From positions 11,534,001 through 11,598,000 of the forward strand of contig CM075992.1 in the NCBI GenBank assembly GCA_038087875.1: a DNA stretch of 64,000 nt, read 5' to 3'. Positions 19,776-61,490 of this stretch are shown here, piece after piece (position 1 is the first letter of the stretch; every line of letters starts with the position of its first letter). The notes under the pieces were generated by a model that saw only the letters and a program-made list of their open reading frames with translations, had not been told where the DNA came from and did no database searches. Position numbers and translations under genes: made by a program. Source of the DNA: Malacoraja senta (Eukaryota).

Positions 19776-22500
19776 CATAGATACATAAAAAATAGGTGCA
19801 GGAGTAGGCCATTCGGCCCTTCGAGCCTGCACCGCCATTCAATATGACCATGGCTGATCATCCAACTCAGTATCCCGTGCCTGCCTTCTCTCCATACCCC
19901 CTGATCCCTTTAGCCACAAGGGCCACATCTAACTCCCTCTTAAATATAGCCAATGAACTGGCCTCAACTACCCTCTGTGGCAGAGAGTTCCAGAGATTCA
20001 CCACTCTCTGTGTGAAAAAGTTTTTCCTCATCTCGGTCTTAAAGGATTTCCCCCTTATCCTTAAGCTGTGACCCCTTGTCCTGGACTTCCCCAACATCGG
20101 GAACAATCTTCCTGCATCTAGCCTGTCCAACCCCATAAGAATTTTGTACGTTTCTATAAGATCCCCTCTCAATCTCCTAAATTCTAGCGAGTATAAGCCA
20201 AGTCTATCCAGTCTTTCTTCATATGAAAGTCCTGACATCCCAGGAATCAGTCTGGTGAACCTTCTCTGCACTCCCTCTATGGCTATAATGTCCTTCCTCA
20301 GATTTGGAGACCAAAACTGTACGCAATACTCCAGGTGTGGTCTCACCAAGACCCTGTACAACTGCAGTAGAACCTCCCTGCTCCTATACTCAAATCCTCT
20401 TGCTATGAAGGCCAACATACCATTCGCTTTCTTCACTGCCTGCTGCACCTGCATGCCTACTTTCAATGACTGGTGTACCATGACACCCAGGTCTCGCTGC
20501 ATCTCCCCATTTCCTAATCGGCCACCATTTAGATAATAGTCTGCCTTCCCGTTTTTGCCACCAAAGTGGATAACCTCACAATTATCCACATTATACTGCA
20601 TCTGCCAAACATTTGCCCACTTACCCAGCCTATCCAAGTCACCTTGCAGTCTCCTAGCATCCTCCTCACAGCTAACACTGCCCCTCAGCTTAGTGTCATC
20701 CGCAAACTTGGAGATGTTGCTTTCAATTCCCTCGTCCAGATCGTTAATATAAATTGTAAATAGCTGGGGTCCCAGCACTGAGCCTTGCGGTACCCCACTA
20801 GTCACTGCCTGCCATTGTGAAAAGGACCCGTTTACTACTACTCTTTGCTTCCTGTTTGCCAGCCAGTTCTCTATGCACATCAATACTGAACCCCCAATAC
20901 CGTGTGATTTAAGTTTGTATCCTAATCTCTTATGTGGTACATTGTCGAAAGCCTTCTGAAAGTCCAGATACAACACATCCACTGGTTCTCCCCTATCCAC
21001 TCTACTAGTGACATCCTCGAAAAATTCTATAAGATTCGTCAGACACGATTTACCTTTCGTAAATCCATGCTGACTTTGTCCAATGATTTCACCACTTTCC
21101 AAATGTGCTGCTATCCCATCTTTAATAACTGACTCTAGCAGTTTCCCCACTACCGATGTTAGACTAACCGGTCTGTAATTCCCCGTTTTCTCTCTCCCTC
21201 CCTTCTTAAAAAGTGGGGTTACGTTTGCTACCCTCCAATCCTCAGGAACTACTCCAGAATCTAAAGAGTTTTGAAAAATTATCACTAATGCATCCACTAT
21301 TTCTGGAGCTACTTCCTTAAGTACTCTGGGATGCAGCCTATCTGGCCCTGGTGATTTATCGGCCTTTAATCCATTCAATTTACCCAACACCACTTCCCGA
21401 CTAACCTGGATTTCACTCAGTTCCTCCATCTCCTTTGCCCCCTGCTATTTCCGGCAGATTATTTATGTCTTCCTTAGTGAAGACGGAACCAAAGTAGTTA
21501 TTCAATTGGTCCGCCATATCCTTGTTCCCCATGATCAATTCACCTGTTTCTGACTGCAAGGGACCTACATTTGTTTTAACTAATCTCTTTCTCTTCACAT
21601 ATCTATAAAAACTTTTGCAGTCAGTTTTTATGTTCCCTGCCAGGTTCCTTTCATAATCTATTTTCCCTTTCCTAATTAAGCCCTTTGTCCTCCTCTGCTG
21701 GTCTCTGAATTTCTCCCAGTCCTCTGGTATGCTGCTTTTTCTGGCTAATTTGTACGCATCATCTTTTGCTTTGATACTATCCCTGATTTCCCTTGTTATC
21801 CACGGATGCACTACCTTCCCTGATTTATTCTTTTGCCAAACTGGGATGAACAATTTTTGTAGTTCATCCATGCAGTCTTTAAATGCCTTCCATTGCATAT
21901 CCACCGTCAACCCTTTTAGAACTAATTGCCAGTCAATCTTGGCCAATTCACGTCTCATACCCTCAAAGTTACCTTTCTTTAAGTTCAGAACCGTTGTTTC
22001 TGAATTAACAATGTCACTCTCCATCCTAAAGAAGAACTCAACCATATAATGGTCACTCTTGCCCAAGGGGGCACGCACAACAAGTCTGCTAACTAACCCT
22101 TCCTCATTACTCAATACCCAGTCTAGAATAGCCTGCTCTCTCGTTGGTTCCTCTACATGTTGGTTTAGATAACTATCCCTCATACATTCCAAGAAATCCT
22201 CTTCCTCAGCACCCCTGGCAATTTGATTCACCCCATCTATATGTAGATTGAAGTCACCCATTATAACTGTTTTGCCTTTGTTGCACGCATTTCTAATATC
22301 CTGTTTGATGCCATCCCCAACTTCACTACTACTGCTAGGTGGCCTGTACACAACACCCACCAGCGTTTTCTGCCCCTTAGTGTTTCGCAGCTCTACCCAT
22401 ACCGATTCCACATCCTCCAAGCTAATGTCCTTCCTTTCCACTGCGTTAATCTCCTCTCTAACCAGCAACGCTACCCCACCTCCTTTTCCTTTCTCTCTAT
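19776..22500 (-). mobile_element. Young CR1 LINE with near-complete ORF2 (APE endonuclease and RT), one frameshift near 21420
   Basis: 388-aa EN frame (VGVVYRPP, IMGDFN, LDWVL, SDH) and 520-aa RT frame ([14 protein letters not shown]). Confidence 0.95.
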
Positions 22501-22986
22501 CCCTGCTGCTGAGGTGTTGCGTTCCTGGTGGAGTGAGACTCAAAATGTCAATGTTCACTCCTGTATAAGCTAGACCCATTTAACCCCCTGGAGAAGGTCT
22601 GTAGTGATACCTTCTAATGAGGTTTTATGTAACTAACAATATTGCTAGTCAGAGTCTATAAGGCTCTTAGGGACCTTGACATACTGGTGTAGATGCGTGA
22701 TCACACACAACCCAAGGTCCATGGGATATGCAACATCTAGTTTGGTCTATGTCCTTGTCTACTCTGCTGGACTTAATCATAAACATAACATGTTATTATT
22801 GCCCACAGATATGATCATCCTATCCAGTGTAGCAATGACTGGACCCGTTGCACTTTACTCAGCGCCATGACATAACCACTAGTAAGTGAGTTTGACCAAG
22901 GACAGGGATGTTGTTGGAGCCCATCGGCGAAGTGATGTAGCACAATGTTAACAACCCATATCTCTGCGTCCCTAGGCCTGGAAGGT

Positions 22987-23081
22987 TTTAATATATGGTC
23001 CCTAGATAAGGGACGTATCAGATATTAAACTGATAAGAACAGATACTACACTTGATCTTAGCCAAAAGGCCGAGAAGCGAT
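22987..23081 (-). pseudogene. RNU2: 3'-truncated U2 snRNA retrocopy (about nt 1-95)
   Basis: Minus strand reads ATCGCTTCTCGGCCTTTTGGCTAAGATCAAGTGTAGTATCTGTTCTTATCAGTTTAATATCTGATACGTCC...ATATATTAAA, the vertebrate U2 5' end with the GUAGUA branch-recognition sequence; stops before the Sm site. Confidence 0.95.
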
Positions 23082-30726: not shown

Positions 30727-31009
30727 AGGCTGATGGCTGCAGGAAAGAAGCTGTTCCTGAACATTACAGTTTTCAGGCTCCTAAATCTTCTTCCTGATAG
30801 CAGGGGTGATAAGTGTGGCCAAGGAGGCGTGGGTCCCTGATGATGCTGGCTGCCTTTTTGTGGCAGTGACCCTTGTTAATCCCTTAGATGGTGGGGAGGT
30901 TAGTACGTGTGATGGACTGGGCAGTGTTCACCACTTTTTGCAGTTTTCTTTGCTCCTGGGCGTTCCATCAGTTTGTAGATGACACCACTGCAGTGGGCCG
31001 GATCACTAA

Positions 31010-32034
31010 AGGGCCTGTCCCACGGGCAGACGATATCAGGCGGTAAGCGCGGCATAGCAGGAAGTGGGGACCGCGCATGTACCGCTAGGGGACCGCTCGG
31101 TGCCCACGGGGTCGGTCCCACGCAGATCGCCGGAGCCGTATGTAGTTGGTCCCGACACCGCGCGGGGCTCAGAAAAACTGACACTGTCCAAAAATCCCGT
31201 GCGGCAACGGCCTGCCGCCCCGCTGCCGCCTGGACGCCGCGCACCGTCTATATGCCACGCACCGTCTGGACGCCGCGCACCGCCTGGATGCCACGAGCAC
31301 CGCCTGGACGCCACGAGCACCGTCTGGACACCACGAGCACCGTCTGGACGCCACGAGCACCGCCTGGACGCCACGAGCACCGCCTGGACGCCACGAGCAC
31401 CGCCTGGACGCCACGAGCACCGCCTGGACGCCACGAGCACCGTCTGGATGCCACGAGCACCATCTGGACGCCACGAGCACCGTCTGGACGCCACGAGCAC
31501 CGTCTGGACGCCACGAGCACCGTCTGGACGCCGCGAGCACCGTCTGGACGCCGCGAGCACCGTCTGGACGCCACGAGCACCGTCTGGACGCCGCGAGCAC
31601 CGTCTGGATGCCGCGCACCGCCTGGACGCCGCGCACAGTATGGACACCGCGAGCACCGTCTGGACGCCACGAGCACCGTCTGGACGCCGCGCACCGCCTG
31701 GACGCCACGAGCACCGTCTGGACGCCGCGCACCGTCTGGATGCCGCGCACCGTCTGGACGCCGCGCACAGTCTCGATGGAGTAGACTAGCGCGTTGCGTT
31801 GCGCGATGACGTCATCACCCAACGCCACGCTCGCCGCATGCATTCGCATGCTCGTGGGACAGGCCGTACAGTAAACACTCGGCCTCCGCGCGGCAACCGC
31901 TTCCGGTTAGGTTGCGCTTGCCGCATGCTCGTGGGACAGGCCGTACGGTGGCACCCGCGCAGCAGCCGCATGGTCCCCACTTCCTGCTACACCGCGCTTA
32001 CCGCCTGGAATCGCCTGCCCGTGGGACAGGCCCT
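31010..32034. mobile_element. Non-autonomous TIR DNA transposon (PIF/Harbinger-like MITE)
   Basis: About 62-bp imperfect TIRs AGGGCCTGTCCCACGGGCAG...GGGGACC; flanks TAA / TTA; interrupts a LINE RT remnant (DDTTAVGRIT..NDE). Confidence 0.8.
31226..31770. repeat. GC-rich 20-bp minisatellite (CGTCTGGACGCCACGAGCAC)n with 18-bp variants
   Basis: Directly visible, roughly 25-28 units. Confidence 0.95.
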
Positions 32035-55344: not shown

Positions 55345-58162
55345 TTTTTTTTGTTGCTTTAAAAAAAAAAAAAAATTATTAGAAGTTTTGTACAATACAG
55401 TGATCTCAAACAAACATAAAATTATACATTTCTTGTACCACTTCTTATTTTAAACTTTAATAAGAAAAAGGATAGAAAGAGTGAGCAAAGATAGTAAGTG
55501 AGTGATTGAAAGAGTGGTCCAGGAACCCCCATATGGACCTAAACCACAAGAAAGAGTTAAACAAAAGAGAAAAACCAAAAGAAAGAAAAAGAAAAAAAAG
55601 TAAGATAAGATAGGACAATATAAAAGGGATGTACCTACTTCATATCTTTACTCACCCCTCGCCAGGTCCTGAAACCATTTATTATCAACATTTTGTTGCA
55701 CCCTATATTTGTAATAAGTCGATAAATGGAGACCAAATCTTTTGGAATTGGTCTGGTTTACCTGCTAAGAGGAATCTCATATCTTCTAGGTGTAACAGTT
55801 CCGACATATTAGAAATCCACATTTTTGTCGTTGGCGTGGGAGCGGTTTTCCAAAATTTCAGTATAAGTTTTTTTGCCGTTATTAAGCCATAATTAAGAAA
55901 GCTCCTTTGAAACGAAGTCAGCTCCAAACTGGCTTCGATTGTTCCAAAAATGATCAGTTCTGCATTCGGTTTCAGTTTTATTTTAAATAATTTTGTGAAA
56001 ATTTCAAAGATTTCATTCCAAAATTTTTGAATTTTTATACAAAAAACAAAAGAATGTGCTATAGTTGCTTCTTGGGTTAGACATTTATCACAGATAGAAG
56101 AGACATTTGGGTAAAATTTACTTATTTTAGCTTCTGAATAATATAATCTATGTAAGATTTTGAATTGAATTAGAATGTGTCTTACGTTAATCGAGCATTT
56201 ATGCACATATAACAAGTGTTTATCTCAACTCTCTTTCGAGATTTGGGATATGATCAGACCATCAGATGATGGTATTTCTATATTTAGGATGGTATTATAC
56301 AGGTATGATATTAAATTAGTTGATTCCGCTTTTATATTCATTGTCTCGTCTAATAGGTCTGGAGACATATTTTGATATTCTTGTGTATATTTGTTCAAAT
56401 AGTCACGTATTTGAAAATATTTAAAACATTGATTACTCCTCAAGTTGTATTTAAGTTGTAGTTGGTGAAATGTTAAAAAAACTTCCATTATCATACATAT
56501 CTCCAAACATTTTAATTCCTAATCTATCCCAGTGTGTAAACGATTTATCTATCGTAGAAGGTTTAAACGAAGGGTTATTCGTTATAGGTGAAAGAAGCGA
56601 TAGATTTCTTAATTTTAAAGTTAATTTTGTTTGTTTCCAAATTCTAATTGTACTATGGATAATTGGATTTTTACTATATATTGTATTCTTCATTTTTGTT
56701 GGTGAGAGAAGGATCGCTCCTATATTAAAAGGGGAACAATCCTCTCTCTCCATTACTATCCAATCCTCCTGCTGGGCCGAGTTGTCCAACAGGTGAATCA
56801 TATTTTTGACATTTGCAGCCCAGTAATAATACAAACAATTAGGGAGTGATAATCCGCCAAATTCTTTAGGTTTGCACAGATGTCTTCTTTGAATTCTATG
56901 GGATTTATAGTCCCATATAAAATTTGTAATATCAGCATCCAGTTTTTAAAAACAAATTTTTGGTAAGTATATCAGTATTGACTGGAATAGATATAAAATT
57001 TGTGGTAAAATAATCATTTCTATAGCATTTATTCGGCCTATTAGAGACATCGGGAGAGTTTTCCAAAATGTAATCAGTATGTTTAGTTTATTGAGTAAGG
57101 GCATATAGTTTGCATTAAATAAAGATTTATATTTTCTAGTAATTTCAATTCCCAAATATTTGAATTTTTCTGAAGCGATTTTAAAAGGGAATTTTAACAG
57201 GTGTGTTGGGTCTTGAGGTTTTATCGTCATAATTTCACTTTTATTCCAATTTATTCTATATCCTGAAAAGGATCCAAATTCCTCACTTAGATTTAATATA
57301 TTTGGTATACTGATTTGTGATTTTGTAATATATAATAGTACATCATCTGCATATAATGATATTTTATTATTTGAGTATTTTGTATTATAACCATGGATGT
57401 TCGGATATATTCTAATACTTTCCGCTTACGGTTCTATTACAAGAGCAAATAGCAGAGGTGATAATGAACATCCCTGTCTATTTCCCCTTGATAATTGAAA
57501 TTTCGGGGACAACATATTATTAGTTAATATTCTGGCAGTAGGCCTGTCATATAATAATTTTACCCAAGCGATAAAATTCTTTCTCATTTGAAAATTTTGC
57601 AATACTTTAACAAGGTAATCCCATTCCACTTGATCGAATGCTTTTTCTGCATCCAATGAAATAATTGATAAGTCTTGTTCTTCAGTTTTATATGAGTGCA
57701 TTATATTAAACAGACGTCTCATATTATTGCATGAGTATCTTTTGGGTATAAACCCGGTTAGATCCGCATTTATTAATTTACTAACATATTTACGTAATCT
57801 TCTAGCTAATGTTTTCGCTAATATGTTTTGTTCTGTATTTAACAGCGCAATAGCTCTATAAGAACCCGGGTCTTCTAAATCTTTATCTTTTTTAGGTATA
57901 AGTGTAATCGTTGATTCCGCTAGTGTTTCTGGAAGTGTATGTTCTTTAAAAGTATATGTATACATTTTATGTAACCGTGGTGTAATTATCTCGTAGAATC
58001 TTTTATAAAATTCATTACTAAAACCATCTGGTCCTGGTGTTTTTCCATTCTTTAATGAATTTATTGTTTCTTCTATTTCCTTAGTTGAGATTTGTGCACC
58101 TAATTCCTCTTGTTCGATCAAATTAAGTTTTGGGAGATTACAATTATCCAAGAACTCTATAA
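55345..58162 (-). mobile_element. 5'-truncated L1-clade LINE, ORF2 pseudogene (RT and C-terminal Cys-rich domain)
   Basis: GKTPGPDGFSNEFY, SLDAEKAFDQV, GNRQGCSLSPLLF, YADD region, CDKC..H..C in ORF 55703-56215; AT-rich; T run at the 3' end. Confidence 0.92.
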
Positions 58163-58240
58163 ACAGGGGGAAAAAAATGGGGAAAAAAATAAAATAAATT
58201 TGCAAGGCACTTTTTAAACATAGTGGGACTTAGTACAGGC

Positions 58241-58656
58241 AATAGACAATAGACAATAGGTGCAGGAGTAGGCAATTAAGCCCTTCGAGGCAGCACCGCC
58301 ATTCAGTGTGATCATGGCTGATCATCCCCAATCAGTACCCCATTCCTGCCTTCTCCCCGTATCTCCTGACTCCGATATCTTTAAGAGCCCTATCCAACTC
58401 TCTCTTGAAAGTATCCAGAGAACCGGCCTCCACCGCCCTCTGACGCAGAGAATTCCACAGACTCACAACTCTCTGTGAGAAAAAGTGTTTCCTCGTCTCC
58501 GTTCTAATTGTCACCCCTTATTCCTAAACTGTGGCCCCTGGTTCTGGACTCCCCCAACATTGGGAACTTGTTCCCTGCCTCTAGCGTGTCCAAACCCTTA
58601 ACAATCTTATACATTTCAATAAGATCCGCTCTCATCCTTCTAAACTCCAGAGTATA
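58241..58656 (-). mobile_element. CR1 3' fragment split by the Helitron; continues at 61853-61937
   Basis: CTAAACTCCAGAGTATA | CAAGCCCAGCC rejoins to match the intact CR1 at about 2800-2830. Confidence 0.88.
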
Positions 58657-59579
58657 CTAGACTAAGTGGGACCCGTTGGGTCCCAGCATCACACGGGAGG
58701 GCTGGTCACCAACGCAATATTCCACCCCTCCACCAATTCCAATATTGCTGGCCAGTGGGGGGGAGGGGGGGGGGGCTTTCTGTTGCGCTTGTATGGGTGT
58801 TGTGGGCCGAAGATACTGGTTTCCAGAGGGCTAGTATAAACATTGTGGGCCAAATGGATTCTTGGGCTGGCAGCTCAGACACTGAGGCCTGGCAGTACAG
58901 TCACTCGAACCTGCCAGGCTGGCAGCTGAGAAACTGCCAGAAATTCTGCCCAAAACAGGTGACAGACTGTGTGAGAGAGAAGGGGGAGAGGGTGGACTGA
59001 ATGGATTATTGGGCTGGCAGTTCAGTCACTTACGGCTGGTGGGCTGGCAGTTCACTGTCTCACGGCTTGTGGGCTGGCAGTGCAGTCATTCACGCCTGGT
59101 ACACTGGCAGTTCATTCAGTCACCCTACCCTTCATCCCCCCACTCTGCTCCTTGCCATTCCCCTCCGCCCCACACATTCAGTCCATCTCCCTACAACCTC
59201 CCCCCATGCACTCTTAGCGGGTCTCCCACAGAGCAGCCATTCCTGCCTATTAGGTTCCCATTGTGATGAAGAACATGCAGGCATGAAAAGTGGAAAAAGG
59301 ATTTATTAAAGTTTAAATTGTGAATTACTCTTAAATTATAAGAACAAATTAAATGTTAAAGATGAGAATCATTAAGTTCTTTCTTGTTGTGTCTCTTGTT
59401 GTGTTCTGCTGCTCACTGCTTCTTGATTGCCATTTGCTGTTGATAAAAAAAGAGACAATTTTAATATAGAGAGATTGAGCGGTTGTAATTTGTTGTAATT
59501 CTCAATCCTCTGGACTCACTGAAGAATTTGTGCGAAACATGTTTTGAGGCGGGGGCTGTCAGGGTGGGGTGGGGGTGGC

Positions 59580-59717
59580 TTCTTCATCTTTCGTGTAGTG
59601 TGCACAGCCTAAAGTTGTAGGACAACTTGTTCTATTTGATCTTCTGTTTGTGCACGTCGCGTTGATTGCATTAGTCGAAACAGGGCGGACCACGTGAAGG
59701 TTGCAATCTTCCACCCC
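59580..59717 (-). mobile_element. 138-bp ribozyme-headed non-autonomous retroposon (possibly Ingi/Vingi- or RTE-related)
   Basis: 9-bp TSD GGGGGTGGC (59571-59579 and 59718-59726); 5' HDV-like fold; structured 3' half; GAAAGATGAAGAA tail. Confidence 0.85.
59664..59717 (-). ncRNA. Minimal HDV/CPEB3-like self-cleaving ribozyme (54 nt, predicted)
   Basis: P1 GGGGUGG/CCGCCCU, P2 GAUUGCA/UGCAAUC, P3 ACC/GGU, L3 UUCACGU, tiny P4 U-UUCG-A, J4/2 CUAA. Confidence 0.85.
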
Positions 59718-60199
59718 GGGGGTGGCAAACATCCTGCAGCCAAGGAAGGGGGACAGCTTCAGGCGGGGGCTCTCGTGGGCTGATGAGGGAGGGGGTGTTC
59801 TGCAGCAGGGATGGATGCGGCTTCAGGAGGGGGAGCATCCTATAGCCATGTGGAGGGCAGCATCTTGAGGTGGGGATGCCAGTGGGGGGGGGGGGGGGGG
59901 GGGGCGGCAGTGAGTGGCCCACTCATGGCCTCTGGACTCACTACCTTGGGACTAACTCATGGTCTCTGGACTGACAAACTCACTCATCGCCTCTGGACTG
60001 ACATACTGAATCACGGCTTGTGGACTGACTGACTGACTTATGCCCGACTTCTGGAGTCACGTCCAACTTTTGTAAGCTGAAAACTGTAACATCCACATTG
60101 AGGAACAGCCTCTTTCTGACAGCCATCAGGCTATTAAACATAACGAATAAGCTCTGAACTACGAAAGACTATATTATTTGTACTATTTGTTATTTGTTG

Positions 60200-60333
60200 A
60201 TCACACACACACCCTCCACCTCACATAGACACTCAAACACACAGACTCTCACACACACAGACACACTCACATACACAGACACACTCTCAGACACACACAC
60301 AGACTCTCAGACACACACACACACACATACACA

Positions 60334-60364
<31 letters not shown>

Positions 60365-60400
60365 ACAGACTCACTCAGAGTCACACACAGACTCACAACC
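60200..60400. repeat. Imperfect (CA)n microsatellite
   Basis: Directly visible. Confidence 0.95.
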
Positions 60401-60812
60401 AATACTAAAATGCCAAGTAATTTCAGAACGTGGTAAACATACAGTGTGTAAACCGAATGATTCAAACGTTTAAAGTCTCCTGTAGAGGCGCTGCTGCTGA
60501 AGCAAAAACGTGCTTTAAATAACGTCCAACAAACACACTCACCATAGACAGAGCAGTAAGCTCTCTTGAATTATTCAACAACGTCTTCACTATGCCTTCT
60601 GCAGTCAGTGCCATCTTGCCATGAACCGGAAATGACGCAGTCAGCGCCATCTTGACGCTAACCGGGAATGATGTAATCGGCGCCATCTTGCCACTAAGCT
60701 GAAGTCACGGAATGAGCGCCAATTTTGCAATTAAACACAGTCCTGATCTAATAAAATGTTTATTCACGCTTTATCCATCCGAAAACTGTTGCAACGATTT
60801 GAAAAACCAATC

Positions 60813-61490
60813 CGAGGCCAACAATTGGGCAGCAGCCACCCGACAAACAAAATTCATTTTGTGAACACAAACTTTTTTTAAAAGGCGAGGCAAACAATTG
60901 GGCAGCAGCCACCTGACAACCAAAATTCATTTTGTGAACACAAACTTTTTAAAAAGGCGAGGCAAACAATTGGGCAGCAGCCACCTGACAACCAAAATTC
61001 ATTTTGTGAACACAAACTTTTTTAAAAAGCGAGGCAAACAATTGGGCAGCAGCCACCTGACAATCAAAATTCATTTTGTGAACACAAACTTTAAAAAAAG
61101 GCGAGGCAAACAATTGGGCAGCAGCCACCTGACAACCAAAATTCATTTTGTGAACACAAACTTTTTTTAAAGGCGTGGCAAACAATTGGGCAGCAGCCAC
61201 CTGACAACCAAAATTCATTTTGTGTAAACAAACTTTTTTAAAAGGCGAGGCAAACAATTGGGCAGCAGCCACCTGACAACCAAAATTCATTTTGTGAACA
61301 CAAACATTTTTTAAAAGGCGAGGCAAACAATAGGGCAGCAGCCACCTGACAATCAAAATTCATTTTGTGAACACAAACCTTTTTAAAAGGCGAGGCAAAC
61401 AATTGGGCAGCAGCCACCTGACAACCAAAATTCATTTTGTGAACACAAACTTTTTTAAAAGGCGAGGCAAACAATTGGGCAGCAGCTACT
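60813..61490. repeat. About 72-bp tandem repeat, 9 full units, inside the Helitron
   Basis: GGGCAGCAG recurs 10 times at 72-73 bp spacing. Confidence 0.95.

What the first reader, a model, noticed from the sequence alone, without database searches (positions are those of the whole stretch)
59580..59717. 138-bp SINE-like retroposon whose head is a minimal HDV/CPEB3-like ribozyme
Seen: the minus strand reads GGGGUGG AA GAUUGCA ACC UUCACGU GGU CCGCCCU G UUUCGA CUAA UGCAAUC. This gives the HDV nested double pseudoknot in the right order: 7-bp P1 opening with a G.U pair, perfect 7-bp P2, 3-bp P3, a 7-nt L3, a one-pair P1.1, P4 reduced to a UUCG loop, and J4/2 CUAA with the catalytic C. G+1, the predicted cleavage product end, directly abuts a perfect 9-bp TSD. 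There are no Pol III A/B boxes. Established: L3 UUCACGU is the loop of the mammalian CPEB3 ribozyme, and HDV-like ribozymes define the 5' ends of R2, RTE and L1Tc/Ingi-type retroelements and their short derivatives. Inference: this is a promoterless element that cuts itself out of host read-through transcripts and is retrotransposed in trans. If multicopy, it spreads a 54-nt transcript-cleaving module through a vertebrate genome. I cannot tell whether the family is already catalogued.
Basis: partly seen in the sequence, partly recalled or inferred. Interest (0 to 1): 0.92.

Follow-up and report, generated by a model that had tools for sequence, protein, structure and literature searches.

The report
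Short retroposon with HDV-like ribozyme head
This is one copy of a very abundant 138-base mobile element whose first 54 bases fit the fold of a small self-cutting RNA of the hepatitis-delta type, so the element probably cuts its own start out of host transcripts before being copied back into the genome.

Summary
Window 59580-59717 (minus strand) is a 138-nt retroposon flanked by a perfect 9-bp duplication. Its first 54 nt fit the HDV-type nested double pseudoknot.

The family is multicopy in a 1.94-Gb genome: 1621 first-look candidates, and a related tail pattern matches 2930 places. Of 27 independent insertions chosen by their 3' part, 24 start exactly at G+1 and 3 are 5'-truncated. Copies end in (GAA)n and carry their own 7-13-bp duplications.

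None of 200,000 shuffles of the head passes my HDV descriptor. A second family of about 210 nt in the same genome begins with a complete 68-nt HDV-like ribozyme that includes P4. It scores 32.8-36.7 bits against Rfam RF02682, which is below the threshold of 44. Its P3 and core resemble family 1, while P1 and P2 differ by compensating changes. Its last 19 nt plus tail equal the 3' end of a LINE.

Against the reading: cleavage is untested. PolyA RNA reads showed no pile-up at G+1 and many read-through reads. The head scores only 16 bits in Rfam. No LINE partner of the 138-nt family was found.

Verdict: a new variant of a known kind, namely ribozyme-ended non-LTR retroposons.

The parts
59580..59717 (-). 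whole 138-nt retroposon copy (family 1, subfamily A)
   Evidence: full-length matches at 96-97% identity elsewhere in the genome, all with these same ends
59664..59717 (-). 54-nt head, proposed minimal HDV-like ribozyme; cleavage would fall between 59718 and 59717
   Evidence: (RF02682 16 bits, E 1.5, model 1-74 on exactly these bases)
59711..59717 (-). P1 5' strand GGGGUGG (element nt 1-7)
   Evidence: pairs with 59682-59688
59709..59710 (-). J1/2 AA (nt 8-9); nt 8 is G in subfamily B and in most reads of other organisms
59702..59708 (-). P2 5' strand GAUUGCA (nt 10-16)
   Evidence: 7 Watson-Crick pairs with 59664-59670
59689..59701 (-). P3 ACC / L3 UUCACGU / P3' GGU (nt 17-29)
   Evidence: same P3 and the same L3 frame (U20, C22, C24, G25, U26) in family 2
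59682..59688 (-). P1 3' strand CCGCCCU (nt 30-36)
59675..59681 (-). G37 (P1.1 partner of C22), then UUUCGA in place of P4 (nt 37-43)
   Evidence: family 2 has an 18-nt P4 hairpin segment (nt 39-56) here
59671..59674 (-). J4/2 CUAA with the proposed catalytic C44; CGAA in subfamily B
59664..59670 (-). P2 3' strand UGCAAUC (nt 48-54)
59641..59663 (-). linker (nt 55-77), the part that differs most between subfamilies
   Evidence: about 8 of 23 positions differ between A and B, against 2 of 54 in the head
59580..59640 (-). 3' module (nt 78-138): hairpin AAGUUGU CCU ACAACUU (59612-59628), then ..CACGAAAGAUGAAGAA tail. Proposed site of recognition and priming by a LINE reverse transcriptase
   Evidence: the module stands alone as 61-nt insertions and is shared by all variants
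59718..59726 (-). upstream target-site duplication GCCACCCCC
   Evidence: empty-site reads
59571..59579 (-). downstream target-site duplication GCCACCCCC
   Evidence: joint 59571->59718

Best explanation
Family 1 is a non-autonomous, ORF-less non-LTR retroposon built of three modules: a 54-nt head, a variable 23-nt linker, and a 61-nt 3' module ending in (GAA)n. It has no recognisable promoter of its own and is transcribed as part of whatever host transcript runs through a copy. The head folds into a minimal HDV-like ribozyme: P1, P2, P3, a one-pair P1.1, and P4 shrunk to six bases. It cuts the RNA just 5' of G1. That gives the RNA its exact 5' end. A LINE reverse transcriptase supplied in trans starts on the 3' hairpin and (GAA)n tail at a nicked target and copies up to G1. 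This produces full-length copies with 7-13-bp target duplications, plus some 5'-truncated ones. Shown: retroposon anatomy, copy number, exact 5' ends, the non-random fit to the HDV fold, and the same arrangement with compensating helix changes in a second family. Inferred: catalysis, read-through transcription as the source of template RNA, and the identity of the reverse transcriptase.
For: Copies: 1621 first-look candidates, 40 scored, all 96-97% identical and ending within 2 nt of the query's ends. The subfamily-B tail pattern matches 2930 places, and 97 of the 100 rows listed carry this 3' module. 5' ends: of 32 copies picked by their 3' part alone, 27 are independent events; 24 start at G1 with a TSD abutting it and 3 are 5'-truncated. 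All 61 non-duplicate heads start there, and none has a shared longer 5' end. Fold: 0 of 200,000 shuffles pass the strict descriptor, and there are no other hits in 588 kb. Rfam RF02682 aligns end to end on exactly nt 1-54. Second family: RF02682 run on the genome gave 5 hits of 25.9-36.7 bits, best E 0.027 for 1.9 Gb. All five are heads of a retroposon of about 210 nt (845 candidates) that starts at the ribozyme's G1 and ends in CAAACGCAAG(AAG)n. On 28 family-1 and 12 family-2 heads, 97% of cells pair. Three pairs change on both sides (6-31 GC/UA, 7-30 GC/CG, 16-61 AU/GC). The covariation score is 0.235 against 0.108 in shuffles (0 of 500 reach it) and at most 0.073 when slid. P2 is 7 of 7 and 8 of 8 Watson-Crick with different letters. 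Subfamilies A and B differ at 2 of 54 head positions, both in joining regions (8 and 45), against about 8 of 23 in the linker. In four runs of other organisms, variants at 10% or more inside the head lie only at nt 8, 32 (U.G to U-A), 42 and 45. Literature: minimal HDV-like ribozymes lacking P4 cleave in vitro (bioRxiv 10.1101/2023.06.13.544163, passages). Ribozymes at LINE 5' ends and bipartite non-autonomous LINEs are described in PMC5786205 and PMC6765202 (passages).
Against: No cleavage assay exists. In raw polyA RNA reads of a related organism (X24, 565 reads laid) no place showed a pile-up of read starts. 204 reads ran on upstream of 59717 into unlike sequence, against 53 + 53 listed at the 3' side, and both directions are covered about 40:60. 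So bulk copies are not visibly cleaved in that library. The head scores 16 bits against a gathering score of 44 and gave no hit at E<=10 in the larger search. Family 2 also stays below threshold (32.8-36.7 bits). P1.1 is one G-C pair plus U-U, and P4 is essentially absent. That form has, in what I read, been reported only from phages and metagenomes. The covariation rests on two families, so on few events. Within-family changes are random decay: the fold is intact in 38 of 59 independent copies. No LINE carrying the 61-nt 3' module or the head was found. An exact 5' end alone would equally fit a transcription start.
Confidence: 0.7

Rival explanations
1. The head is an internal promoter or other protein-binding element, and G1 is a transcription start. 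This would be a SINE in the strict sense with a novel head, and the HDV-like pairing would be incidental or secondary.
For: Exact 5' ends are what any SINE with an internal promoter shows. A TTCGA core resembling a B box lies at nt 39-43 (the B-box consensus is recalled). RNA reads show no cleavage signal. PolyA libraries would miss Pol III transcripts.
Against: There is no tRNA and no tRNA, 5S, 7SL or snRNA match at E<=10, and I could read no A box. The two nearly invariant B-box positions flanking the core are not met (recalled consensus). The rival does not explain 0 of 200,000 shuffles. It also does not explain why a second family with different P1 and P2 letters keeps the same fold and gets 33-37 bits from a curated HDV model.
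Confidence: 0.12
2. Dual or relic head. The ribozyme was inherited from a LINE 5' end like that of family 2, but after loss of P4 it is weak or dead. The family then spreads because the same bases also serve as promoter or as a binding site for the reverse transcriptase, as reported for the 77-nt head of L1Tc.
For: P4 is lost and P1.1 is weak. There is no in vivo cleavage signal. The Pr77/L1TcRz precedent combines promoter and ribozyme in one 77-nt head (PMC3383444, abstract). Family 1 shares ACAAACAGA after the ribozyme with family 2 (E 2.6, weak).
Against: The helices and core are kept unchanged between subfamilies A and B while the linker diverged. A dead ribozyme would not need that. P4-less HDV-like ribozymes are active in vitro (preprint passages).
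Confidence: 0.15
3. Chance resemblance: an ordinary retroposon head that happens to draw as an HDV fold.
For: I wrote the descriptor after seeing the sequence. The Rfam score is far below threshold. Earlier notes of this scan record similar claims in other genomes that failed.
Against:: no shuffle passes; an independent curated model finds the sister family; compensating changes are present.
Confidence: 0.03

Closest known systems
Short non-autonomous derivatives of ribozyme-ended non-LTR retrotransposons: R2 SIDEs, NARTc of L1Tc, bipartite non-autonomous RTE/Ingi/R2 elements
   Same: ORF-less and LINE-dependent, with the 5' end set by an HDV-like ribozyme and a LINE-type 3' end (PMC3414825 abstract; PMC3383444 abstract; PMC5786205 and PMC6765202 passages). 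Family 2 here fits this kind well. Its last 19 nt plus tail equal the 3' end of a LINE whose ORF ends about 25 nt before the tail.
   Different: For the 138-nt family I found no parent LINE sharing head or 3' module. It is modular (head + unrelated linker + 3' module) and swaps or gains internal pieces (L066, L107, L108). It is not site-specific, and it is much shorter.
Minimal HDV-like (P4-less) ribozymes, including theta ribozymes of gut phages
   Same: Same core with P4 missing; about 50-60 nt; active in vitro according to the preprint 10.1101/2023.06.13.544163 (passages read).
   Different: Those were reported from phage and metagenome DNA next to tRNAs. This one heads a retroposon in an animal genome. 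The sequences are unrelated, and a metagenome pattern scan found 0 matches.
Mammalian CPEB3 ribozyme
   Same: Same element lengths and numbering up to nt 38: G1.U36, U20.G25, C22, A23, and a P1.1 of one G-C plus U-U (PMC4836649 passages). Family 2 is 68 nt with G56 C57 G58, as that paper numbers CPEB3. That L3 is letter for letter the same as CPEB3's is my recall, confirmed only in part by the residues the paper names.
   Different: The Rfam CPEB3 model gives no match at E<=10. This element is multicopy and mobile rather than a single intronic locus. P4 is absent in family 1.
Hammerhead-bearing SINE-like elements of schistosomes (Sm-alpha)
   Same: A short dispersed retroposon that carries a small self-cleaving ribozyme (PMC6765202 passages).
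   Different: A different ribozyme class. Those appear to be Pol III transcribed and tandemly arranged.

Membership tests
HDV-like ribozymes (drz) | Nested double pseudoknot in the order P1-J1/2-P2-P3-L3-P3'-P1'-(P1.1)-P4-J4/2-P2' | tested here: met
   feature list recalled and partly read in PMC4836649
HDV-like ribozymes (drz) | 7-bp P1 opening with a G1.U wobble, cleavage 5' of G1 | tested here: met
   The pairing is met, and G1 is the first base of 24 of 27 independent insertions. Cleavage itself was not tested.
HDV-like ribozymes (drz) | 3-bp P3, 7-nt L3 with U..G reverse wobble and a C for P1.1; catalytic C opening J4/2 | tested here: met
   U20, C22, G25, G37, C44. C22-G37 is invariant in 39 of 39 distinct rows.
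HDV-like ribozymes (drz) | P4 helix | tested here: not met
   Only UUUCGA lies between G37 and C44. This is the state of the 'minimal' subclass, so it does not by itself exclude the family. Family 2 has a 5-bp P4.
HDV-like ribozymes (drz) | Score at or above an Rfam gathering threshold | tested here: not met
   RF02682: 16 bits against 44; family 2 scores 32.8-36.7. Covariance models cannot score P2 or P1.1.
HDV-like ribozymes (drz) | Helices supported by compensating changes | tested here: met
   3 pairs changed on both sides between the two families; P2 entirely different yet paired. Few independent events.
HDV-like ribozymes (drz) | Mg2+-dependent self-scission abolished by C-to-U at the catalytic C | not testable with these tools
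   The only indirect look (RNA reads) showed no cleavage signal.
LINE-dependent non-autonomous retroposons | Dispersed multicopy, own TSDs, simple-repeat tail, 5'-truncated copies, no ORF | tested here: met
   empty site
LINE-dependent non-autonomous retroposons | 3' end shared with an autonomous LINE of the same genome | tested here: inconclusive
   Family 1 shares only ACGCAAG(AAG)n with the LINE 3' end found. Family 2 shares 19 nt plus tail. The LINE ORF matches zf-RVT below Pfam's cut-off (22.1 and 20.4 bits against 27.5).
SINEs in the strict sense (Pol III head) | Head derived from tRNA, 5S, 7SL or snRNA with an internal promoter | tested here: not met
CPEB3 ribozyme family (RF00622) | Match to the family model; single conserved intronic locus in mammals | tested here: not met
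   No RF00622 match at E<=10; multicopy.

The most novel reading that the evidence does not exclude
An early-branching vertebrate lineage carries, on active retroposons, both a 68-nt HDV-like ribozyme with the same element lengths and numbering as the mammalian CPEB3 ribozyme and a 54-nt P4-less derivative of it. The flanking repeats, and the one named protein relative (a skate record), point to cartilaginous fishes. The single-copy CPEB3 ribozyme could then descend from an exapted copy of such a retroposon lineage. The thousands of genomic copies could also act as weak transcript-cleaving sites in host genes.
Probability: 0.08. Interest if true: 0.8.

Novelty: new variant of a known kind. Interest (0 to 1): 0.6.

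Why it matters
If the 54-mer cleaves, it would be a P4-less 'minimal' HDV-like ribozyme in an animal genome. In the passages I read, that form is reported only from phages and metagenomes. It would also show that a ribozyme can replace the Pol III gene as the head of a SINE-like element: a promoterless parasite that needs only host read-through, 54 nt of catalytic RNA and a LINE-type tail. With thousands of copies, two subfamilies and a P4-bearing sister family in one genome, it offers a natural series for asking what P4 and P1.1 contribute. It also offers a candidate relative for the unexplained origin of the CPEB3 ribozyme. If it does not cleave, it is an ordinary young retroposon family.

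Tried and rejected
**Search for a parent LINE of the 138-nt family**
- Ribozyme 3' half followed by a non-SINE base: 4 hits, all mutated copies.
- Linker followed by a non-SINE base: 16 hits; the 6 I fetched are all mutated copies.
- The 29-nt 3' anchor with a non-SINE base 36 or 31 nt upstream: 62 and 64 hits. All are indel variants, 5'-truncated copies or composite variants (L066-L068, L107-L108).
- Pfam RVT_1 on the genome: 159,857 candidates. The 30 best loci share nothing with the element and have no (GAA)n run.
- The CR1-like LINEs in the window end in (TTTCTATG)n, not (GAA)n.

**Other searches that led nowhere**
- Metagenome scan for the loop-and-joiner pattern: 0.
- Earlier findings of this scan: none for this genome or sequence.
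- Nested-only folding of the 138 nt is no better than shuffles (z 0.40). This is uninformative for a pseudoknot.
- Frequent variants falling only at tolerated head sites is a weak argument: 57 of 162 single changes are 'tolerated' by my test.

**Papers**
- Ruminski 2011 and Webb 2009 are not held, so I could not check whether a similar vertebrate element is listed there.
- Searches found no paper describing this family. Repbase and Dfam could not be consulted.

**Taxon**
- The protein atlas gave only 'Chordata commonest' for a LINE ORF.

Full report
**1. What is in the window**

On the minus strand, 59717 down to 59580 reads a 138-nt unit. It begins GGGGTGGAAGATTGCAACCTTCACGTGGTCCGCCCTGTTTCGACTAATGCAATC and ends ...CACGAAAGATGAAGAA. 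GCCACCCCC stands directly before it (59726-59718) and directly after it (59579-59571).

I number the element p = 59718 minus the window coordinate.
- P1 is 1-7 with 30-36: seven pairs, including G1.U36 and U5.G32.
- P2 is 10-16 with 48-54: seven Watson-Crick pairs.
- P3 is 17-19 with 27-29.
- L3 is UUCACGU.
- G37 can pair with C22.
- Six bases, UUUCGA, stand where P4 should be.
- J4/2 is C44-U-A-A.

A fixed-register test of these pairs and core bases is passed.

**2. It is a real, abundant retroposon**

The window lies in a 1.94-Gb assembly of 6182 contigs. The 138 nt gave 1621 first-look candidates. The 40 scored were all 96-97% identical and reached the query's ends to within 2 nt.

In the 30 loci cut out, every copy starts at GGGGTGG (GGCGTGG in the duplicated pair L021/L022) and ends in (GAA)n. 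Copies at different places have different direct repeats of 7-13 bp abutting both ends, for example gctgaaaggaa, cctgaaacatt, ggcatggggat and ggtgagatgtt.

For a sample not chosen by the head, I took the 40 best matches to the last 66 nt and fetched the 32 not yet held.
- Duplicated loci collapse (L096=L078, L085=L083, L101=L102=L100).
- L075 and L097 are one old event.
- That leaves 27 independent insertions.
- 24 start at G1 (three with a mutated or uncertain first base or two, two with internal deletions).
- 3 are 5'-truncated, at about nt 44, 45 and 67.

None of the 61 non-duplicate heads has a shared extension upstream of G1. Short 5'-truncated insertions with their own TSDs also occur (L065, L067, L068).

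The window's own copy is not a fresh insertion.
- It sits in a repeat unit of at least 2.5 kb, shared at 87-95% identity with L003, L013, L015, L017 and L018.
- L075 and L097 have the same immediate flanks.
- All of them carry the same insertion.
- RNA reads of another organism that join 59571 to 59718, skipping 146 bases, show the unit without the element (5 reads).

**3. Subfamilies and size**

The window copy belongs to a young subfamily A: J1/2 AA, J4/2 CUAA, tail ..GCCACACGAAAG(AAG)n. A subfamily B has J1/2 GA, J4/2 CGAA (CAAA in L092) and a different, partly shorter linker. Examples are L092, L094 and the old copy split by the young one in L008.

The tail ..GCCATACGCAAG(AAG)n was seen in L008's old copy and in the reads of other organisms. 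L092 and L094 read CCACACGCAAG instead. I therefore assign the 2930 matches below to subfamily B on the strength of that one copy, the reads, and the shared ACGCAAG.

The pattern 'non-A, 30 any, ACGCAAGAAGAAGAAG' matches 2930 places. 97 of the 100 rows listed carry this family's 3' module. The whole family therefore runs to thousands of copies, mostly of subfamily B.

A and B differ at 2 of 54 head positions (nt 8 and 45, both in joining regions), at about 8 of 23 linker positions, and at 4 of 61 positions of the 3' module (L002 against L094).

Composite variants keep head, linker and 3' module but hold 58 to about 270 nt of another abundant repeat. The insert lies between two copies of ATCAAAT(AG) at nt 78 (L066, L107, L108). 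Several 61-nt insertions start exactly at nt 78. I have no tested explanation for that hot spot.

**4. Is the HDV-like fold more than chance?**

I wrote a descriptor from recalled HDV rules:
- G1.U with a 7-bp P1;
- J1/2 of 0-5 nt;
- P2 of 5-8 bp;
- a 3-bp P3;
- L3 of 7-8 nt with U at position 1, C at position 3 and a G at positions 5-7;
- G after P1';
- 3-60 nt in place of P4;
- C-N-R-A;
- then P2'.

On both strands of the window and all loci then held (588 kb in all) it hit only heads of this family. Among 200,000 dinucleotide-preserving shuffles of the 54 nt, none passed at position 0, and 22 passed if only the helices were asked for. Among 20,000 shuffles of the whole 138 nt, none passed anywhere, and 121 passed on helices alone. 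The descriptor was written after seeing the sequence, so these numbers are generous.

Independent of me, Rfam's HDV-F-prausnitzii model (RF02682) aligns end to end on exactly nt 1-54. The score is only 16 bits (E 1.5 for 400 nt; gathering score 44). No tRNA, 5S, 7SL or snRNA model matched at E<=10, and ARAGORN found nothing.

**5. A sister family settles most of the doubt**

Running RF02682 over the whole genome gave five matches of 25.9-36.7 bits, the best at E 0.027 for 1.9 Gb. All five are copies of one further retroposon family of about 210 nt. That family gave 845 candidates; the 40 scored were 91-95% identical and full length.

In 20 fetched copies the element starts at the first G of the ribozyme match, and the base before it varies. 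It ends in CAAACGCAAG(AAG)n. In at least 12 of the 20 I could read a direct repeat of 8-11 nt at both ends (by eye). Six consensus-like copies score 30.4-32.8 bits, with P1, P3 and P4 all aligned. 12 of the 20 pass my descriptor, each starting at element base 1.

This head is 68 nt:
- P1 is GGGGCUC/GAGCCCU.
- A8 is the single J1/2 base.
- P2 is UGUUGUCG/CGACAACA (8 bp).
- P3 is ACC/GGU.
- L3 is UCCCCGU.
- G37-U38 follow P1'.
- P4 is a 5-bp hairpin.
- C57-G-A-A forms J4/2.

The first 38 positions align with family 1 without a gap. On 28 family-1 and 12 family-2 heads:
- 97% of cells form standard pairs.
- Pairs 6-31 (GC/UA), 7-30 (GC/CG) and 16-61 (AU/GC) change on both sides.
- Pair 5-32 changes U.G to C-G.
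- C22-G37 never varies.
- The covariation score is 0.235, against 0.108 in shuffles (0 of 500 reach it) and at most 0.073 with slid partners.

The rest of P2 could not be put in one register, because J1/2 and P2 differ in length. It is fully complementary in each family with different letters.

**6. The reverse transcriptase**

Two of the 100 rows listed had the family-2 tail behind a different sequence. Its 32-mer occurs 73 times. In L134 and L135 an open frame runs to about 25 nt before the tail. It ends ...LNRLRTG..MHRWGL..C.CG...T..H....C and matches Pfam zf-RVT at E 2.4e-4 and 8.4e-4, below Pfam's cut-off.

So this is the 3' end of a LINE. Family 2 shares its last 19 nt plus tail, whereas family 1 shares only ACGCAAG(AAG)n. 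That the LINE belongs to the RTE clade is my guess, from the very short 3' UTR.

No LINE carrying the head or the 61-nt 3' module of family 1 was found. That check covered only subfamily-A anchors.

**7. RNA evidence**

Parts of the element are held by 23 runs from 14 studies of nine coded organisms. I laid one raw polyA RNA run (X24) and three contig sets on window 59480-59820.
- Depth on the element is 250-380 in X24, against about 10 on the flanks.
- Both directions are present, roughly 40:60.
- No place shows many molecules beginning or ending.
- 204 reads run on upstream of 59717 into diverse sequence, against 53 at 59579 and 53 at 59600 on the other side (143 further loose ends were not shown).

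This is what passive read-through of copies in both orientations gives. It does not show cleavage. It is also not decisive:
- The library is polyA-selected and from another organism.
- Most reads are only 90-95% like the window copy.
- About a third to a half of copies have a damaged fold. The fold is intact in 38 of 59 independent copies, and in 10 of 21 in the sample chosen by the 3' part.
- A core with a one-pair P1.1 may be slow.

The same table shows that variants reaching 10% inside the head lie only at nt 8, 32 (U.G to U-A), 42 and 45. Thirteen such sites lie in the other 84 nt. Since 57 of 162 possible single changes pass my tolerance test, that is only mild support.

**8. Comparison with what is known**

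HDV-like ribozymes at the 5' ends of R2, RTE, L1Tc/Ingi, LOA, R1 and R4 elements, and short non-autonomous derivatives that keep the LINE's 5' and 3' ends (SIDEs, NARTc, bipartite non-autonomous RTEs), are described in PMC6765202 and PMC5786205 (passages) and in PMC3414825 and PMC3383444 (abstracts). Family 2 is a plain new member of that kind.

The 138-nt family works the same way but differs in three respects. Its ribozyme lacks P4. It is modular rather than an evident internally deleted LINE. No parent LINE was found.

Minimal P4-less HDV-like ribozymes are active in vitro. In the passages I read they were detected only in phage and metagenome DNA (bioRxiv 10.1101/2023.06.13.544163).

The CPEB3 NMR paper (PMC4836649, passages) numbers G1.U36, U20.G25, C22, A23, G56-C57-G58, and a P1.1 of one G-C plus U-U. 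Family 1 has the same residues at the same numbers up to nt 38, and family 2 also has G56-C57-G58 in 68 nt. That CPEB3's L3 is letter for letter UUCACGU is my recall. Rfam's CPEB3 model does not match either family at E<=10. So this is a likeness of architecture, not membership.

I could not read Ruminski 2011 or Webb 2009 (not held), nor Repbase or Dfam. Five literature searches found no description of this family.

**9. Verdict**

The retroposon reading is as good as certain. The ribozyme reading is well supported by anatomy, controls and a sister family, but catalysis is unproven, and the one look at RNA did not show it.

I put 0.7 on 'the head is a working self-cleaving ribozyme that makes the 5' end', 0.15 on a weak or dual-purpose relic, 0.12 on a promoter-type head, and 0.03 on chance.

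The organism is a chordate by its LINEs. The single named relative of the LINE fragment is a skate protein record, and the flanking repeats recall cartilaginous fishes (recall only).

Noticed in passing
window 22885-23081 (-) and 19867-22579 (-): A full-length U2 snRNA match (115.8 bits) lies about 300 nt upstream of, and in the same direction as, a CR1-like LINE. The LINE has endonuclease and RT frames of 388 and 525 aa and ends in (TTTCTATG)n. LINEs with snRNA-derived 5' ends are reported for crocodilian Tx1 (PMC4758252 passage). I did not test whether this is such a case or mere adjacency.
   Followed up: no
G000 loci L109-L133 (e.g. L116:41-250): A second retroposon family of about 210 nt (845 first-look candidates). 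It starts with a 68-nt P4-bearing HDV-like ribozyme (RF02682 30-37 bits) and ends in CAAACGCAAG(AAG)n.
   Followed up: yes
L134:1494-1879 (-), L135:1494-1997 (-): 3' ends of a LINE (73 exact copies of its last 32-mer). Its ORF ends about 25 nt before an (AAG)n tail and has a weak zf-RVT match. It is the probable partner of the second family. Its clade and 5' end were not seen.
   Followed up: partly
window 58656-61217: The element sits in a repeat unit of at least 2.5 kb, shared at 87-95% with five other loci. The unit includes a 72-bp tandem array from about 60813 to beyond 61217. The nature of the unit is unknown.
   Followed up: partly
element nt 78 (window 59640); L066, L107, L108; lists: Hot spot at ATCAAATAG. 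Many 61-nt insertions start exactly there. Composite variants carry pieces of another abundant repeat between two copies of this word. Template switching or deletion between direct repeats are untested guesses.
   Followed up: partly
window 55703-58229 (-): A 5'-truncated L1/Tx1-like LINE fragment with four consecutive frames (YADDVLLY motif) just downstream of the repeat unit. It is unrelated to the element.
   Followed up: no
window 30979-31906: A GC-rich tandem repeat region giving long open frames in all six frames (period about 48 nt, 'HEHRLDATSTVWTPRAP'). It coincides with the GC peak of 0.54 at 28-32 kb.
   Followed up: no
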